Shown here one piece after another: positions 11,815 to 64,000 of a stretch of 64,000 nucleotides of DNA; position 1 is the stretch's first letter; the number at the start of each line of letters is the position of its first letter. The stretch is from NCBI RefSeq assembly GCF_006345805.1, contig NC_043002.1, positions 4,650,001 through 4,714,000 on the forward strand, given 5' to 3'. Source of the stretch: Octopus sinensis. Its lineage: Eukaryota. The position numbers and the translations under genes are program-made. The notes under the pieces are model-generated. The model worked only from the letters and a program-made list of their open reading frames with translations, was not told the origin of the DNA and did no database searches.

Positions 11815-14800
11815 GTTTCTTTATTAGCCACACAGGGCTGCACACAGACAGAACAAATTACAAGGTAGAGCTTTTCTTTTGGGGGTAAAAAAAAAGGGGG
11901 TTGGTTTTCGATCAAAAGGGATCGTAAAAGGAAAGAAAGAGGACAAAAAAAGGGGAGGATTTTAAAAAAAGGGGGGGAGAGGAAAAAAAGTTGATCAATA
12001 GGGATCGTGATCACAGAAATGTCAATATGAAGTGTAAAGGGGAGGACAGGTGAGGTTTACCCGTGGAAAGAAAAGCCTACGGAAAAGACCACGGTAACCT
12101 CGGTTAATGAAGTCACATGTTATATTTGTTTCTTTTTTTTTATTGGCAAATAAGCAACTCTCTGTATTAATTTTTACGGTTCATAGAATCATAGTCAAGG
12201 TGGCTTTGTCATTCATACGTGCCATCCTTGCTACATTCACCCATCTTTTTTTAAAACATTCACTAGACAAAACTTGCCTCTCTACTCTCACTTTCCTCCT
12301 CAAGTGATACTTGAAAAAGTTGATGAGAGATTGACCAGAGAGGAAAGTGTTTGTCTCTAATCCTTTCAGGCGCGACCACCAGATACATTCTTTCGCCATA
12401 GCCACAAGTATGATGAAAATAGCTCTTCCTTTCCGTTTGAAGGAAGGAGGCGTGACGATATTAATGATAGACTCGGCTGATAAACCGACACGTTCCACAC
12501 ATGACAGCAGTTGTTCGACATAAGCCCACAGGTGGGAAATTGCTGGACACTGCACGAGTGCGTGCAGAGCGGTATCGTCGCTCTGACCGCATCTCGGGCA
12601 GGTCGGCCCCGTGTTTCTCGAGCCATGCCTATAGAGCTTATCCCGAACGGGTAGCGCTTCTCGGTAGCACCGCCAGGGCAGGGATCTCTGGAAGTTGTCC
12701 ATAGGTCCCGGGCCGAAAGTCGTTTGAAACAGGCAGGTCAGGTATTCCTCGTCGACGCCCAGGTTTGCCCCGAGATCGTGTCGTCGTACCTCCCCTCCAC
12801 TTATCCCCTATAGAATGCTTTGGTTGTGTTGAAGTCACTCAAGGTCGACCGGGACGCAGAGTTGTTGAGAGCAACGCGGACACTCGCGGTGCCATTCGAC
12901 CTTCCTCGGCCTCTTTTTGATCCAGGACTGCAGTTCGGTCATGGAGATGAGTTGCGGGAAAGCGTGCCTCAGAAACGGCGACCAGACCTGTTCACCGTCG
13001 TCTACATAGAGCCGGAGATGTCGCAGTCTCAGCGCGCGTCTGCGCATCATCAACCACGGCGTGTTGACAGCAAATGGATCGCCTGACCATCGGGACGCAT
13101 CCTTTCCACGAGAAGCGGAAGAGAATGCGTTCTAGTTTGGTGATGGTAGGGTCGGGACAAGGTACGACAGTCAGGCGGTAGTAGATGATGGACGCGATGT
13201 ACATGTTCGCCACCTCCGCCCGACCTTTTAGGGATAGTTTCCTCTCGGCCCATTGCTGGGCGCGAGTGACGACCCTACTCGTTATCTCGTTCCAGTTCTT
13301 CTCCATTTGGAGGTCCGGACCGAACCAGACCCCGAGCAACTCGACCCAACCGTCGGTCCAGCGTCCCACTGGACGGCATGGGCTTGTTTCTCCAGGTGCC
13401 GAGGCGCAAGCCCACTGATTTTTCCCGGTTGATTTTCGCTCCTGTCACCGCTTCGTAGTCTTTCAGTGTCTCGCCGACCTGCTCGATGTGCTCGTGACCA
13501 GACACTATGACGGTGACGTCGTTCGCGTATGTAGACACGCTCTTCCCGCATCCCAATTCTCGCGGGATGCCCCTAAGAGTTGTCAGCTTCCGCAATAATG
13601 GCTCGAGAGTCAATACGTATAGAAGCGACGAGAGGGGGCATCCCTGACGGACCGAACGTGCAATGTCGAAAGGTTTCGATAGATGTTCATTTACGCGAAT
13701 TACCGAACGGATGCCTCTTTACAAAGCGGCTATCCAGCCGCGGAAGACGGGACCGAAACCAGCCTCCAAGTATCGATGATCTACCCTATCGAAAGCTTTC
13801 GATTGATCCAAATTGATCAGCGCCCCACCCATGCCAGGTTCCTTAGCTACCCTGTCTATGATGTAGCGCATCAGGTGGAGGTTGTCATGGATGCTCCGGC
13901 CCGCCACGGCGCACGTTTGCGCCTTGTCTACCAGTTTCTCGATGACAAACGTCAACCTCTTGGCTAACACCTTGGCCAACATTTTCAAGTCTGCATTAAG
14001 CAGAGTGATGGGTCTAAAGTTATCTATTACATCCCCTTGTTTGGATCTTTCCTCAGCTGTGTTACGGCTCCTCGGCTCACAAAACCAGGAATGCTCCCAT
14101 TTTGCTGCCAGTTGCAGTACACCGCCGCCAAGAGATCTCCAAACAAGTCTGGCATACAAAGTAAAGCTCGTAGGGTAGACCATCTAAATCCGGCGATTTG
14201 TCCCTCGAGCATTCTGCCATCGCGTCTTGCACTTCCGCAGCTATGATGGCATTTTAGCAGCTCCTGTCTCTCTTGTCGAGAGTCGTGGTAGGCTGTATAG
14301 GTAGGCACTGAAGTCCACCCTACGTTCTTGCCCGCCACTTGTCTCGAACAGTCGAGCAAAGTGCTGTTGAAAGGCCTCACACATTTTACTTTGCTCGAGC
14401 AATTCGCGCCCCTGTTCATCTACCGGAGACCGAATGGTGGTTTTGTTGCCCTGTTGCGCCTCTGCCACCCGGGCCTCTCTCGCGGCTCCAACACCTTCGT
14501 TCCTTAGAGCACGCATCCTAGCTCTGACAACACACTCTTCGTATTTGGCGTTGAAGTGTTGGTCGAGGGCCAACTTCGTCGCCAAAACGTCGGATGCGAT
14601 GCCGCTTCTAATTGCCTCTTCTAGCTTCTTAACTAGCTCACCTTCTACTCTGTTTCTATCTATGGCTAGTGCTTTGTTGTACCTAATCGCTTCTGCTTTT
14701 ACTGCTCTCTTGAGGGAGAACCATCATTTGTTGTTGATGATGGCTCCCGTCAAAGCCCTCTTTACTAGTGTGTTAATCCGGTCTCTGAAAACCTGTCTCG

Positions 14801-15628
14801 ATGGGAAAGACGCGTTTAGTTTCCAGTATCCGGGACCCTGCCTATGTGTCTTACCTAAGTCTAGCATACTTGTCACAAGTTTGTGATCCGTGATGCTGAC
14901 TATTTGGAATTGTGGACATCCTACGCTATCTCTATCTACTGTCATACACAGTATCCTATCTAGATACGATCTCGACGACCCGATTCGGTTGCTCCATGTC
15001 CACGTTGGCGCATTCAGGTGGTCTAGTCGGAACCTGTCAGACAGTTGAAAGCGTCTGAGCAGGTCTCTGAGGCATTTGCATCCCCGTCTATTCCTATCTC
15101 TGCCCACGTGTCCAAAGTAGCATTCCAATCCCCCACTAAGAGTAAAGGACGAGACGTTCCCAAGAATACTTCTAGACGTTGAAAGAAATCCGCCCGACCT
15201 GTTAAAGGCGGTGCGTAGACTGCTAGGAATCGAAAAGTGCACCCATTGCTGCCGTCGAAACCCAGGACGACCAGTCTACCCTCCGGGTCTACGAATATTG
15301 TCTTTACTTTGAGATCCAGAGTCTTGCGAAAAAGTACCGCGGTGCCACTACCGCCCATTCTTGGCAGACAGGGTGAAAAATAAATGTTGAACTGTCCGTC
15401 AAACATGGTCTTTAGGGCCCGCGGATTGTGGAGTCTGGTCTCACTTATGGGTATGATTTCTAACTTGTGTGACTTTATGTCATTTAAAGGTAACCTTGTT
15501 TCCAAGGGGACCCCAAGCCACGCGCATTTACACAACCAATCTTGATCATAATCCTAATGAATTAGAATACAAGTGAAAGGAACAGAGGGTTACTTACTGC
15601 TTGAAAGTTTTTGCTTTCTCACAGAGTG
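11815..15628 (-). mobile_element. L1/Tx1-clade non-LTR retrotransposon, ~3.8 kb (whole ORF2, 3' UTR, likely last codons of ORF1)
   Basis: APE, RT and zf-RVT domains in order; flanked on both sides by (GATA)n at 11747-11811 and ~15650-15727. Confidence 0.93.
12181..15549 (-). pseudogene. Frameshifted ORF2 (APE endonuclease - reverse transcriptase - zf-RVT)
   Basis: MIKIGCVNARGL..ISETRL, VYAP, GDWN, SYLDRI, ITDH, GPGYWKLN, FRPITLLNADLK, LDQSKAFDRVDH, VRQGCPLS, YAND (YADD mutated), CPRC..H..C. Many frameshifts. Confidence 0.92.
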
Positions 15629-26682: not shown

Positions 26683-27250
26683 AGGCGGCGAGCTGGCAGA
26701 AACGTTAGCACGCCGGGCGAAATGCGTAGCCGTATTTCGTCTGCCGTTACGTTCTGAGTTCAAATCCCGCCGAGGTCAACTTTGCCTTTCATCCTTTCGG
26801 GGTCGATTAAATAAATACCAGTTACGCACAGGGGTCGATATAATCGACTTAATCCGTTTGTCTGTCCTTGTTTGTCTCCTCTGTGTTTAGCCCCTTGTGG
26901 GTAATAAAGAAATAGGTATTTCGTCTGCCGTTACGTTCTGAGTTCAAATTCCGCCGAGGTAAACTTTGTCTTTCATCCTTTCGGGGTCGATTAAATAAGT
27001 ACCAGTTACGCACTGGGGTCGATATAATCGACTTAATCCGTTTGTCTGTCCTTGTTTGTCCCCTCTGTGTTTAGCCCCTTGTGGGTAATAAAGAAATAAG
27101 TATTTGTTCTGGTTCATAACGTTCTGAGTTCACATATTACTGATGTTAACTTTACTTTTTATCCTTTCAGGAGTAGATAAAATAAATAGCAGTCAAATAC
27201 TGAGATCGATTAATCGACTAGCCCACTTCCCTAAAATTGCTAGCTTGGTT
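26683..27250 (+). mobile_element. Family C SINE dimer inserted in an older family C copy
   Basis: 184-bp internal tandem unit; TSD-like gtatttgttc(a/t)ggt at 26666-26679 and 27100-27113. Confidence 0.85.
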
Positions 27251-46856: not shown

Positions 46857-47194
46857 TACGGAGATGTACTCGCATAGCAAGTGACCTGATCTGAGATCGT
46901 GTCCTGAAACGAAAACAATTGCAGCGTGGAAGGTGTTTGTAAGCCATTTAAGAAACACACAAAAGCCGTTCCATTCACTTCAACATTTAAGTTTAATTTG
47001 TCAATATATTTTCGTCGCTAAAATCCGCGACCTGTTCACTGACAAAAGAGATGCAGCACGGACTTTTGTCAGTGAACAGGTCGCGGATTTTAGCGACGAA
47101 AATATATTGACAAATTAAACTTAAATGTTGAAGTGAATGGAACGGCTTTTGTGTTTCTTAAATGGCTTACAAACACCTTCCACGCTGCAATTGT
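46857..47194 (-). mobile_element. Penelope-like hairpin insertion E1 with 12-bp TSD
   Basis: Arms 46915-47048 and 47063-47194, 58-nt extension, TSD ctttttgagacc at 46845-46856 and 47195-47206. Minus-strand ORF start MAYKHLPRCNCFRFRTRSQIRSLAMRVHLR. Confidence 0.8.
47065..47114 (+). ncRNA. Non-canonical minimal hammerhead-like motif (G3-C8 core)
   Basis: TTTGTCA-GTGAACA-G-GTCGC(ggatttta)GCGAC-GAAA-ATAT-AT-TGACAAA; mirrored in the other arm. Position 16.1 is A in this copy. Confidence 0.55.
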
Positions 47195-47270
47195 CTTTTT
47201 GAGACCGATGTATCATTAACCATTGGTGCGACAGAATGATAGACAAACAATCATTCACACATACACGCGT

Positions 47271-47348
<78 letters not shown>

Positions 47349-48193
47349 CTTTGTATAATTGAAGTGTTTCTCTAAAATATGTGTCCTTTACTTTTTATAA
47401 CCTAGCATTTGGACAAACAGACTGGAATAAAATACGTACGACACTGGAATAAATAATGGTGTGGATATGCTCGACTGAAAGTCTCCGACGGTGGTACAAT
47501 TGTTGATTTATTTGATAACACAGAAACGAGTGAAAGGACAAAATATTTTCAATTCATACGATATATCTCTCTTAAAATATTACAGCATAAATTCTTTATT
47601 TTCTTATGCCCCGCAATTTAGAAATGCCCGTTAGCTTCAGATTGGAACCTCAAGCAGGTTTTCTGCGCTGAAAGAGAGTGATTGAGAATTTACAGTTACC
47701 CGTAACGGCATAGACATCTCGCAACCATGTTGTGACTCCAACCAGCAAGCTGTCGATGGTGTTTAAAGACTCAAAGATTATGTTGTAAAAGAGGAGCGGA
47801 TCTCCGCCTGTCTGTCCGTCACAACATCAATTAGAAAGAGGGAAAAAAGGGGAGGAATCAAAATATATTTCACAATGTAGTTTTAGAACAAGAGGAGAAA
47901 GGATGAGAAAGAAACACAGTGAGAGAAATACAGTGAGAGAGGGAGAAAGAGAGAGAGAGAGGGAGAGAGTGTGGGTGTGTGTATGCGTGAAGAAAAAAAA
48001 GATACATACACATAGATACATACATAAATAGGTATTGTTGCTATAGTAACTAACAAGTTTTGATTAAAAACGCGGCAGTTTTAAGTGCGAGTCTGTGAAT
48101 ACAACGAAGTACACTTAAAAAGAACACTTTCATTATATAACAATATATATAGTCATTTTTGGGTTGTTTGTATTTCTTTGTGTGTGTGTGTGT

Positions 48194-48245
<52 letters not shown>

Positions 48246-49394
48246 GTGTGTGTGTTTATGTCTTCCAACACAGAGGCAACGCAACGCATACTAAAAAAGA
48301 CTGTCACTGTAATGACAGATTGTTGATGTCGAGAAAAAAATTCAGGGACAGATAGATTGATAGAGAAAGAGAGTGTGTGTGTGGGGGGTGGGGGTTGAAA
48401 GATAAAATTAAAAATTGCTTCAAGGAAAAACAGGCTGATGTTGTTGAGAGTACAATACAGTGTGTGAGAGAGAGAGAGAGAGAGAGAGAAAGAAAGAGCG
48501 TGTGTTTGTGTATGTGTGAAAGATAGGTAGACTGTTGCCACCATAGTAATTAACAAAGTTTTCATTACATAATAGTCTGCTATTAAAAGAAGGTACTTTT
48601 ATGACTAATAAATGTTTTTACCGGCAGCGTAGCGACGGATTAGACCTAGAGTTCATACAACCGACCCTGGAAATTTGATTGACCGTCTTGACTACGTGTA
48701 GTTACAAATGGTTATTTCTTAATTCCAATTTTTGTCTAATTTTTTATAGTATTTGTAGTCACTTGATATGAACAAATTAAAGCATATTATCACAGGAATG
48801 ATAAATATTTGATGTATCAAATTGTAAGAGAAAAGAAATAAAAATGTCGATTTATTCCCTTAGTTTCAGTTTTGCTAAAACGAGAATTATGTTTGCATCA
48901 ATGATAGCATTGTAAATAAATGGAACAGCCTGCAGCTAGTTTTCAAAATCGTTACGGACCCCTACTCGACATATACGATTTGTTCAATGACTAAATATCT
49001 GATAATGTGAGCACACACACGAACACACACAAATGCATATGTGTCTGTGTGTGTGAGGGGTTTGTATGAATGTGTTTATGTGTGTGTCTGTGCTTGTGCG
49101 CGTGTTTATGTGTGTGCGTGTGTTTGTGTGTGTATGTGTAATTTCAAATGCTTACCTATCACACATTTAAATGTTTCATTGCTATATAGCTTACAGACAA
49201 TGCTGTTTATATCCGGTTGGTGTTGACTGACGCACTGAATGTTGGGAAAACGAAAGCAGATTTTCCCGCGCAAGAGATATTGGCACATTATGACGTCATA
49301 ATGTAATGGTATCGAAATTTCTAAAAGATATATGGTACATACGGCACAATTGGAAAAAGTTACCACCTACTCGTATATTATTCTTTTTTTATTC

Positions 49395-49792
49395 TTTTAT
49401 TCTTTTACTTGTTTCAGTCATTTGACTGCGGCCATGCTGGAGCACCGCCTTTAATCGAGCAATCGACCCCGGGACTTATTCTTTTGTAAGCCCAGTACTT
49501 ATTCTATCGGTCTCTTTTGCCGAACCGCTAAGTAACGGGGACATAAACACACCAGCATCGGTTGTCAAGCAATGCTAGGGGGACAAACACAGACACACAA
49601 GCACACACACGCATATATATACATATATACGACGGGCTTCTTTCAGTTTCCGTCTACCAAATACACTCACAAGGCTTTGGTCGGCCCGAGGCTATAGTAG
49701 AAGACACTTGCCCAACGTGCCACGCAGTGGGACTGAACCCAGAACCATGTGGTTCGTAAGCACGCTACTTACCACACAGCCACTCCTGCGCC
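49395..49792 (-). mobile_element. Full-length family A SINE
   Basis: Reverse complement of the 36282 copy. Confidence 0.88.
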
Positions 49793-49923
49793 TTTTATTA
49801 GTTCCTTTCAATTTTATATGTAGGATTATAAGAGCATAACAGAATACATTGTTCAACATTATTTTCGTTGTCAAAATTATTGAAGTGGTTTCAGGATATG
49901 TTTGAGATTATCATATTCTTTAA

Positions 49924-50195
49924 TCTGTTGTGTCTGGGGAGAGTCATTTTCTTTTTGTGCCTTATAATATAACACACTCACCGGTAAAATTTCCACTTTT
50001 TTGTTCCTTATTTTTATTTTCCTAAAATCTTCGTTGCGTCTTGCAACCTTTTCAATAGTTTTACCGGAAATGTTACCGGTGAGTGTGTTGTATTATAAGG
50101 CACAAAAAGAAAATGACTCTCCCTAGACACAACAGAATATGCTTCAACACACGATCTCACATAAAGAATCTTGCTAACCAAATTCCCCGCAAAAA
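49924..50195 (+). mobile_element. Penelope-like hairpin insertion E2 with 12-bp TSD
   Basis: Arms 49924-49987 and 50073-50136, 59-nt extension, TSD catattctttaa at 49912-49923 and 50196-50207, empty paralogous site near 42831. ORF start MTLPRHNRICFNTRSHIKNLANQIPRK at 50113. Confidence 0.8.
50022..50058 (-). ncRNA. Non-canonical minimal hammerhead-like motif (U3-A8 core)
   Basis: CTA-TTGAAAA-G-GTTGC(aagac)GCAAC-GAAG-ATTT-TAG. Position 15.1 is G in this copy. Confidence 0.45.
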
Positions 50196-55736: not shown

Positions 55737-57024
55737 GGTCATCCCATAAGTTCCGTCCGATTTTACCTTTATTAAAATTGAATGAAATTTAATAGTATTT
55801 TTGAATGTCTAATGCAATTAAAATTATTTTTATGCATTTGCGTACATTTAAACTAATTAGATATTATTTTACAGAATAATAGAATTAAAATTTCTTTGAT
55901 TAAAACCCCTTCTAACATGGAAGTAGCCAAAGAGCATTTGAGGCACATAATGCTTTATGAGTACGAAAAAGGAAACTCTGCAGCCGAAGCGACTCGAAAC
56001 ATACACTCAGTTTATGGCAAAGAATGCTTGAATGAAAGAACTTGCAGAAGCTGGTTTGAAAAATTCAGAAGTGGAGATTTCAGCCTTGAAGATGAAGATC
56101 GAACAGGACATCCAGTTGAGTTTGATGATAAGGTCCTTGAGGCATTACTTGAAGAAAATCCTGCATTATCTGTTGAAGAATTGGCAATAAAGCTTACTTC
56201 AAACCATATAACTGTTCATTGTCATCTTCAACAACTTGGAAAGATTCCTAAACTTGGAAAATGGTTGCCTCATGAATTGTCCGAAAGCAACCGCAAATCC
56301 CGAGTTAACATCTGCTCTTCTTTCCATCCTTGCAAACTCATTTCACTCTTTTTGGATAGACTTGTAACTGGTGACGAAAAATGGATCTTCTATTGAAATG
56401 TTAAACGTCGTAAACGGGTGCTTGGTAAAAGGGAAAAAGCTCAACCACAACCGAGAAGGGAACTTCATGAGAAAAAGGATTTTCTCTCTATCTGGTAAGA
56501 TTGCAAAGGACTAATTCACTTTTATTGTTACCACCTAATGCAACTATCAATGCTCAAGTCTACTGTCAGCAATTAGAGGGTTTGAACCAAGCTTTGAAGA
56601 AAAAACGACCCGCTTTAGTGAATCAAAAAGGAGTGATGTTTCATTTGGACAATGCGCAACCCCGAACTGCAAAGATCACATCACAGAAGATCAAAGAGCT
56701 TGGTTGGGAAAAAAATTTCTTCATCCACCTTATTCTTCCGAACTTGCTCCTCCAGACTAACATTTGTTTCGTAGTTTACAGAATCATTTGGGGGATATAA
56801 CTTTCGCAAGCCAGGAAGAGGTTAAAACTGACATTTCCGAGTTCTTCGCTTTGAAATCAAAAGAGTTTTACATTGATGGGATTTAAAAGCTTGTAAAATA
56901 GATGGAAGTAAGTCATGGATAATCAGGGAAAGTACATTGATGATTAAATTTCAATTAGATAAAACATTTGATCACTTGTTTTCTTTATTGAAAACTGGGA
57001 CAAAACCTATGAGATGTCCTGATA
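55734..57024 (+). mobile_element. Full-length (~1.3 kb) decayed mariner element
   Basis: Imperfect TIRs (ggtcatcccataagttccgtcc versus revcomp ggacatctcataggttttgtcc) with TA ends enclosing a transposase. Confidence 0.92.
55917..56947 (+). pseudogene. Mariner DD34D transposase pseudogene
   Basis: HTH N-terminus, WLPHEL, TGDEKW, HLDNA, PPYSSELAPPD*HL; stops and frameshifts. Confidence 0.92.
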
Positions 57025-63461: not shown

Positions 63462-64000
63462 ATTACGTTCTGAGTTCAAATTCCGCCGAGGTCGACTTTG
63501 CTTTTCATCCTTTCGGGGTCGATAAATTAAGTACCAATTTCGCATCGGGGTCGATGTAATCGACTTAATCCCTTTGTCTGTCCTTGTTTGTCCCCTCTGT
63601 GTTTAGCTCCTTGTGGGTAGTAAAGAAATAGGTATTTCGTCTGCCGTTACGTTCTGAGTTCAAATTCTGCCGAGGTCGACTTTGCTTTTCCTCCTTTCGG
63701 GGTCGATAAATTAAGTACCAGTTTCGCACTGGGGTCGATGCATTCGACTTAATCCCTTTGTCTGTCCTTGTTTGTCCCCTCTGTGTTTAGCTCCTTGTGG
63801 CTAGTAAAGAAATAGGTATTTCGTCTGCCGTTACGTTCTGAGTTCAAATTCTGCCGAGGTCGACTTTGTCTTTCATCCTTTCGGGGTCGATAAATTAAGT
63901 ACCAGTTTCGCACTGGGGTCTATGCAATCGACTTACTCCCTTTGTCTGTCCTTGTTTGTCCTCTCTGTGTTTAGCCCCTTGTGGGTAGTAAAGAAATAGA
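63462..64000 (+). mobile_element. Tandem array of headless family C SINE units (184 bp)
   Basis: Units restart at ggtatttcgtctgcc at 63631 and 63815. Confidence 0.9.

What the first reader, a model, noticed from the sequence alone, without database searches (positions are those of the whole stretch)
47065..50058. Hammerhead-like cores with natural covariation of the 3-8 pair (G3-C8 and U3-A8) plus an extra G after A9
Seen: GUGAACA-G in E1 and UUGAAAA-G in E2 replace CUGANGA, each followed by a 5-bp stem II (GTCGC/GCGAC and GTTGC/GCAAC, itself covarying) and GAA, and enclosed by stem I. Established: C3-G8 is a Watson-Crick pair in the active hammerhead and compensatory swaps can retain activity. 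Searches for CUGANGA would miss these motifs. Each copy here has one further core defect (A at 16.1 in E1, G at 15.1 in E2), so these copies may be inactive.
Basis: partly seen in the sequence, partly recalled or inferred. Interest (0 to 1): 0.75.

Follow-up and report, generated by a model that had tools for sequence, protein, structure and literature searches.

The report
Penelope hammerheads with swapped core pair
Two short leftovers of jumping genes in this animal genome carry small hammerhead-shaped RNA motifs whose central base pair is swapped (G-C in one family, U-A in the other, C-G in a third sister family); the two copies here are likely dead, but the families likely keep a working self-cutting fold, and the G-C swap was not found in the papers searched.

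Summary
Observation confirmed. E1 (two inverted arms, 46860-47197) and E2 (49921-50186) are independent, 5'-truncated ends (pLTR plus ORF stub) of two sister Penelope-like retroelement families with RT, Cys linker and GIY-YIG nuclease. Each has over 1,000 first-look candidates in the genome. The core changes are family-wide: G3-C8 in 136 of 148 E1 copies, U3-A8 in 77 of 82 E2 copies. The extra defects (A16.1, G15.1) are private to these copies; the family majority has A15.1-U16.1, U17 and a palindromic helix III. A third sister family has C3-G8. Across 19 related elements the 3-8 pair changes 7 times on a protein tree, 6 times to another Watson-Crick pair. U3-A8 and the extra base after A9 are published features of Penelope minimal hammerheads. 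A natural G3-C8 was not found in four targeted literature searches, but two key papers were unavailable. This scan noted G3-C8 behind Penelope RTs in two other genomes (unchecked). Cleavage is untested, and no sampled copy starts at the cut site. Verdict: new variant of a known kind; window copies likely inactive.

The parts
47049..47197 (+). E1 right arm: 5'-truncated pLTR end of a Penelope-like element (family E1), starting at the family's common 5' end 22 nt before G3
   Evidence: 95% identical to ORF-linked copy L132; 5' end analysis
47065..47114 (+). Minimal type I hammerhead, G3-C8, extra G, private A16.1 (47106); predicted cut site after 47107
47162..47194 (+). Start of the element's presumed ORF (MAYKHLPRCNC), cut off
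   Evidence: assignment as ORF start inferred from similar stubs in E2 and E3
46860..47046 (-). E1 left (inverted) arm with the roughly 55-nt longer 3' 'tail' and ORF stub from 46947
   Evidence: 96% to L132; 95% inverted match
46997..47046 (-). Second copy of the G3-C8 hammerhead (G3 at 47039), same A16.1 defect
49921..50062 (-). E2 arm: 5'-truncated pLTR end of sister family E2, ORF stub from 49947
   Evidence: 89% to ORF-linked copy L094
50022..50058 (-). Minimal type I hammerhead, U3-A8, extra G, private G15.1 (50029); predicted cut site between 50025 and 50024
50066..50186 (+). E2 inverted arm truncated 3' of the hammerhead, with tail and ORF stub from 50113 (MTLPRHNRICFNTR)

Best explanation
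E1 and E2 are truncated, inverted-repeat ends of two sister Penelope-like retrotransposon families whose flanking repeats carry minimal type I hammerheads with a swapped 3-8 pair; in intact family members the motif likely still folds into the active core and likely cleaves only slowly, as a dimer or with the element's protein, whereas the window copies are likely inactive. Shown: the link to RT + GIY-YIG ORFs, the family-wide core letters, the palindromic helix III, and compensatory change at 3-8, stem I, II and III. Inferred: two copies pair through the palindrome (AAUAUU in E1, AAUU in E2); N3-N8 positions the 2'-OH of nucleotide 8 whatever the base identity; the cut falls after U17. Inferred from copy ends: new insertions are made mostly from uncut RNA, so cutting is probably a side or regulatory step, not what defines the template's 5' end.
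For: ORF linkage: E1 motifs lie about 1 kb downstream of RT-EN frames (L061, L128 with 1,042 aa, L132, L133). E2 motifs lie 0.7 kb downstream (L083, L090/L094, L096). GIY-YIG passes the Pfam cut-off for E1; E1 and E2 proteins are 52% identical. De-duplicated copies: E1 G3-C8 136/148, U16.1 145/148, U17 147/148; E2 U3-A8 77/82, A15.1 78/82; sister E3 C3-G8 24/24. In a 13-row alignment of the three families 6 of 11 pairs change on both sides, including 3-8, and 99.3% of cells pair (27-53% when partners are slid). Among 145 E1 copies, 0 of 42 stem/core positions vary at >=10%, against 4 of 8 in loop II and 12 of 49 downstream columns (columns not independent). On a protein tree of 19 scored elements the 3-8 state changes 7 times; 6 land on a Watson-Crick pair, and 1 is a single C-A copy. 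In a Penelope hammerhead, engineered C3G or G8C alone abolishes cleavage, the double mutant partly rescues it, and activity needs the element protein (PMC11167929 passages). Window E1 misfolds into an extended helix through the core and sits in a roughly 150-bp hairpin.
Against: No cleavage data of any kind. 0 of 30 E1 and 0 of 30 E2 copies retrieved with downstream-only queries begin at the predicted cut site; 25/30 and at least 20/30 span it. The modelled double-hammerhead fold is only about equal to two monomers for E1 (-28.8 vs 2 x -14.1) and worse for E2 (-8.6 vs 2 x -7.3 kcal/mol). E2 has only a 3-bp stem I. All families have a UUU triplet and G as the extra base; the published consensus has H there. 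E3 has C9 in 22 of 24 copies, a change at a normally fixed core position. Published min-HHRs cleave weakly even as dimers. Copy samples are the best-scoring 30-40 hits per query out of more than 1,000 candidates. Deep nodes of the tree are poorly supported (29-55), and most outside elements are single copies.
Confidence: 0.66

Rival explanations
1. The fold is conserved but is no longer a functional ribozyme: it serves as a protein-binding, translational or promoter-proximal RNA element in which the 3-8 pair is structural.
For: Inserted copies span the cut site. In PAc, HHR mutants do not affect insertion in vitro and no RNA-seq reads ended at the cut site. C9 in E3 and in L185.
Against: G5, A6, G12, A13, A14, A15.1-U16.1 and non-G 17 are kept in E1, E2 and E3 and in most relatives. 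The lone 3-8 pair forms in the active conformation (PMC3884650 passage).
Confidence: 0.24
2. The motifs are neutral decay products of a canonical hammerhead: the G3/C8 and U3/A8 letters drifted in a source element, were amplified by hitchhiking, and the complementarity is chance.
For: A single source lineage can fix anything. G3-C8 arose once in the tree, and one double change is complementary about 1 time in 3 by chance.
Against: 6 of 7 changes keep the pair. Older and younger E1 subfamilies differ in loop II and downstream but not in core or stems. Stems covary between families.
Confidence: 0.08
3. Chance look-alike hairpins unrelated to hammerheads.
For: Rfam scores nothing.
Against: Position in pLTRs, canonical C3-G8 in the sister family and relatives at the same place, shuffle control.
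Confidence: 0.02

Closest known systems
Minimal type I hammerheads (min-HHRs) of metazoan Penelope-like elements (Cervera & de la Pena 2014, PMC4209133; main text parts 1-2 of 4 and supplement parts 1-2 of 3 read)
   Same: In pLTRs; short palindromic helix III; unpaired nucleotide between 9 and 10.1; G10.1-C11.1; mostly single truncated copies, some close on opposite strands; U3-A8 variant (about 1,300 in S. mansoni).
   Different: G3-C8 is in none of the representative cores read in the text of Fig. S3. The extra base is G (consensus H; G in one listed wasp example). Sister family E3 has C9.
Natural core-variant hammerheads (Perreault et al. 2011, PMC3088659; passages read, supplements searched by term)
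   Same: Natural covariation of the 3-8 pair.
   Different: Reports only U3-A8 for this pair in the passages seen; mostly non-PLE contexts.
PAc Poseidon element of Anolis (Frangieh et al. 2024, PMC11167929; part 1 of 4 and passages read)
   Same: pLTR hammerhead near the ORF start, two 3' end positions (tail), AT-rich targets, uncut RNA used as template; engineered C3G/G8C partly active.
   Different: PAc has natural C3-G8 and its hammerhead overlaps the ORF start; here the motif lies about 90-105 nt upstream of the presumed ATG and the elements have a Cys linker.
Neptune/Nematis-type EN+ PLEs (Craig et al. 2021, PMC8557442; passages read)
   Same: RT, CX2-5CxxC linker, C-terminal GIY-YIG, inverted 5'-truncated copies, one-sided tail, microsatellite targets.
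   Different: Tails here are about 55-65 nt rather than 30-40; clade not placed against reference sequences.

Membership tests
Penelope-like element (EN+) | ORF with RT and C-terminal GIY-YIG endonuclease linked to the repeat | tested here: met
   GIY-YIG above the Pfam cut-off in E1, below it in E2; YVDD RT motif invariant in alignment A2; RVT_1 only below cut-off; linkage
Penelope-like element (EN+) | Inverted 5'-truncated copies and one-sided tail extending into the ORF start | tested here: met
Penelope-like element (EN+) | Full pLTR-ORF-pLTR tandem unit | tested here: inconclusive
   Fetched long copies are 5'-truncated or inverted; no intact upstream pLTR joined to the ORF was seen
Neptune/Nematis clades | CX2-5CxxC linker between RT and EN | tested here: met
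   CX3CxxC in E1, CX4CxxC in E2 and E3 (translations; motif definition)
Neptune clade proper | RT phylogeny with reference Neptune, Nematis and Poseidon elements | not tested
   No reference sequences held; the tree has unnamed relatives only
Minimal type I hammerhead | Stems I and II around the core, supported by covariation | tested here: met
Minimal type I hammerhead | U4 G5 A6 A9 G12 A13 A14 A15.1-U16.1 H17 in the family majority | tested here: met
   E1 and E2 majorities meet all; 117/148 E1 and 61/82 E2 copies match their family majority at every scored core position. The window copies each fail one.
Canonical hammerhead consensus | C3 and G8 identity | tested here: not met
   G3-C8 and U3-A8; Watson-Crick pairing is kept
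Minimal type I hammerhead | Palindromic helix III allowing a dimer | tested here: met
   AAUAUU (E1), AAUU (E2); predicted dimer stability marginal
Hammerhead ribozyme | Self-cleavage 3' of position 17 | not testable with these tools
   No raw RNA reads offered

The most novel reading that the evidence does not exclude
E1 is an active natural G3-C8 hammerhead, not previously described, fixed in a recently amplified retrotransposon family. It belongs to a Penelope sub-clade (extra G after position 9, sometimes C9) whose hammerheads have repeatedly flipped the 3-8 pair and are invisible to CUGANGA descriptors and Rfam, which would mean a sizeable hidden class of protein-assisted ribozymes in animal genomes.
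Probability: 0.35. Interest if true: 0.62.

Novelty: new variant of a known kind. Interest (0 to 1): 0.45.

Why it matters
The C3-G8 pair was established by crystal structure and engineered swaps; nature was known to use U3-A8. Three sister families in one genome with G-C, U-A and C-G give a natural compensatory series, including the double-transversion swap so far seen (in the papers I could read) only as a lab mutant. It argues that the active hammerhead fold is under selection in Penelope elements even though uncut RNA appears to be what gets inserted, which bears on the open question of what these ribozymes do. In practice, descriptors fixed on CUGANGA miss such families, so reports of Penelope families 'lacking' hammerheads deserve a re-scan with a free 3-8 pair.

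Tried and rejected
Rfam at the gathering score (window) and at E<=10 (5 loci): no hammerhead hit, only microsatellite-driven miRNA noise. PDB sequence search of the E1 protein: no match at E<=1. RNA evidence: no holder on record as RNA and only contigs were offered, so nothing can be said on expression or cut ends. Contigs of four runs (organism labels A, B, D, E) showed no >=10% variant in the E1 core or stems except one insertion in loop II, but cover of the core was thin in one run. The same check was not obtained for E2. A genome-wide covariance-model scan for further families was not available, so other 3-8 states in this genome remain unsampled. One search's counts were not de-duplicated and are replaced. 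The idea of a cap-derived extra G at the common 5' end: 12 of 22 E1 rows (12 of 20 after dropping 2 that are really long copies; p about 0.05) but 4 of 12 E2 rows (4 of 9 after dropping 3); the E3 line of that script is invalid because all rows are long copies; left as a weak lead. The branch-point/AG-like sequence upstream of E1 suggested an intron, but truncated copies keep the AG and no splice joint appeared; not supported. An 'avoid pairing of N3 with N17' rule fits E1 (U17 in 147/148; PMC3884650 says G3-C8 is less active with C17, data not shown there), but two U3 relatives have A17 (L189, L190), so it is not general. E1 and E2 as one unit: rejected; they are separate families with microsatellites and an unrelated repeat between them. 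Five loci in the tree had no scorable motif and were left out of the change count (L191, L194, L196, L211, L216). Papers not held: Lunse 2017, Przybilski & Hammann 2007, Hammann 2012, Martick & Scott 2006. PMC2632901, PMC11014351, PMC10085705 and PMC6155905 passages had nothing on a natural G3-C8.

Full report
Observation. The window is microsatellite-rich animal DNA from a 2.7-Gb assembly. The best named protein relative of the elements is from an octopus, so the host is probably a cephalopod; this is an inference. A scan for N3-UGA-N-N8-A with a Watson-Crick 3-8 pair, 0-1 extra base, a stem of at least 5 bp and GAA finds three sites: 47072 (+), its inverted twin 47039 (-), and 50055 (-). One hundred local dinucleotide shuffles give 0.26 on average, at most 2. 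Rfam reports none of them.

What the two pieces are. DNA searches of the own genome gave 1,533 (E1) and 1,361 (E2) first-look candidates, of which 40 each were scored, at up to 98% identity. These are not copy numbers. Most copies are about 150-220 nt long, often as head-to-head inverted pairs, with two preferred 3' ends about 55-65 nt apart and frequent (TA)n neighbours. Longer copies lead upstream, through a microsatellite-laden spacer, to the stop codon of an ORF with an RT (YVDD, DKSG), a CX3-4CxxC linker and a GIY-YIG domain. GIY-YIG passes the Pfam cut-off for E1 and is below it for E2; RVT_1 is below cut-off. The two proteins are 52% identical. An E1 copy retains a 1,042-codon open frame. 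The 3' ends of the short copies encode similar peptide starts in E1, E2 and a third family, as expected when reverse transcription starts inside the ORF (PMC11167929). This anatomy matches EN+ Penelope-like elements of the Neptune/Nematis type (PMC8557442 passages); I did not place them against reference clades. In the window, E1 is a pair of arms (46860-47046 minus, 47049-47197 plus) and E2 another (49921-50062 minus, 50066-50186 plus); no RT is attached.

Family-level core. After removing duplicate loci, 136 of 148 E1 copies have G3-C8, 145 have U16.1, 147 U17 and 144 the extra G. For E2, 77 of 82 have U3-A8, 78 have A15.1 (one G, the window's; three gaps) and 80 the extra G. So the window's A16.1 and G15.1 are private defects, and helix III is a palindrome in both families. 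These samples are the top-scoring hits only and lean towards well-preserved copies. The protein search also exposed a third sister family, E3 (about 51-59% identical to E1/E2), with C3-G8 in 24 of 24 copies, the same extra G, a covarying stem II, and C at position 9 in 22 of 24. On a 13-row alignment of the three families, 6 of 11 pairs change on both sides (two in stem I, 3-8, two in stem II, one in helix III). 99.3% of cells pair, against 27-53% for slid partners; with three lineages this is descriptive, not a probability. Within E1, none of 42 stem/core positions varies at 10% or more among 145 copies, against 4 of 8 loop II positions and 12 of 49 downstream columns, several of which belong to the same indels. 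E2 shows the same trend weakly (1 of 32, 1 of 5, 7 of 70). Contigs from four public runs under four organism labels agree for E1.

Relatives elsewhere. An alignment of 38 proteins retrieved 80 metagenome loci, of which I scanned the best 54 with the descriptor and read the 3' flanks of 19. Thirteen carried a scorable motif just 3' of the ORF or inverted near it: 8 C3-G8, 4 U3-A8, 1 C3-A8. None had G3-C8; 11 of the 13 had G as the extra base, and one had C9. On a maximum-likelihood tree E1 is sister to E2+E3 (support 94 and 100). Fitch parsimony over the 19 scored tips needs 7 changes, 6 of them to another Watson-Crick pair; five unscorable tips were pruned. Deep nodes are weak and outside tips are single copies, but U-A and C-G sit next to each other in well-supported pairs, so the toggling is repeated. 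G3-C8 arose once in this sample.

How it likely works. Established: C3-G8 forms in the active hammerhead (PMC3884650 passage); the 2'-OH of G8 is essential, and G8C is partly rescued by C3G (PMC8495972 passage). In a Penelope hammerhead the single mutants are dead, the double is partly active, and cleavage needs the element's protein. Minimal PLE hammerheads cleave weakly and as dimers. Inferred: intact E1/E2 RNAs fold stems I and II (predicted MFE), complete helix III between two copies or with protein help, and cut after U17 at a low rate. Against a simple picture: the modelled double hammerhead is no more stable than two monomers for E1 and less stable for E2. With queries lying wholly downstream of the motif, none of 30 E1 and none of 30 E2 copies starts at the cut site; 9 E1 copies start exactly 22 nt before G3 and 5 E2 copies 13 nt before U3. 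New copies therefore appear to come from uncut RNA with a preferred 5' end just upstream of the motif, in line with PAc. The window's copies are likely dead: A16.1 lets the core zip into an extended helix, and read-through of the E1 locus would form a roughly 150-bp hairpin; the E2 motif lies in the loop of an inverted repeat and lacks A15.1.

Comparison with print. PMC4209133 already describes the unpaired base after position 9 as conserved in min-HHRs and U3-A8 in about 1,300 S. mansoni motifs; the Fig. S3 alignment text shows no G3-C8 and a consensus of H at the extra position. PMC3088659 reports natural U3-A8 (supplements searched without hits). Four searches aimed at a natural G3-C8 and two broader ones (59, 99) returned only engineered examples or nothing relevant in the listings and passages I saw. 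The library lacks Lunse et al. 2017, the largest survey of PLE hammerhead variants, as well as Przybilski & Hammann 2007 and Hammann 2012; figure images and bioRxiv supplements could not be seen. 'Not in print' is therefore unproven. Two earlier notes of this scan mention G3-C8 motifs behind Penelope RTs in other genomes; they are unchecked and I reached my reading before seeing them.

Verdict. A real feature and a new variant of a known kind. Identity as Penelope pLTR hammerhead descendants: about 0.97. Selection on the 3-8 pair: about 0.9. Cleavage by intact family members under some condition: about 0.66. Interest 0.45: ordinary transposon debris at this locus, with one modest but testable novelty.

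Noticed in passing
L129:6365-6410 (+) and L130-L131, L134-L148; L185:2497: Sister family E3 has a canonical C3-G8 pair but C at position 9 (22 of 24 copies) together with the extra G; an unrelated metagenome element has U3-A8 with C9. The extra G may relax the need for A9.
   Followed up: partly
L264-L323; window 47049: Copies share a preferred 5' end 22 nt (E1) or 13 nt (E2) upstream of position 3, both starting AGA; possibly a transcription start just ahead of the hammerhead. Extra G before it in 12 of 20 E1 copies, no signal in E2.
   Followed up: partly
L006:1160-1810: Four tandem units of about 167 nt, each with an E1 hammerhead, plus one inverted: a retrozyme-like array that could allow dimer cleavage.
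   Followed up: no
L013:1279 (-), L029:2467 (+), L131:5896 (-): Other, canonical C3-G8 minimal hammerheads with extra A, from different repeat families in the same genome.
   Followed up: no
window 12184-15553 (-): Broken LINE-like ORF pieces (endonuclease- and RT-like by eye; not scanned).
   Followed up: no
window 55857-56393 (+): Fragment resembling a mariner-type transposase (by eye; not scanned).
   Followed up: no
window 26732-27193 and 63463-63999; 49400-49790: 184-bp tandem arrays and dispersed copies of abundant short repeats, unrelated to E1/E2.
   Followed up: no
L094:2114 and 7158 (-): Two E2 copies 5 kb apart, each followed directly by an inverted E1 end; several other loci also hold E1 and E2 or E3 side by side, suggesting shared AT-rich target preference.
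   Followed up: no
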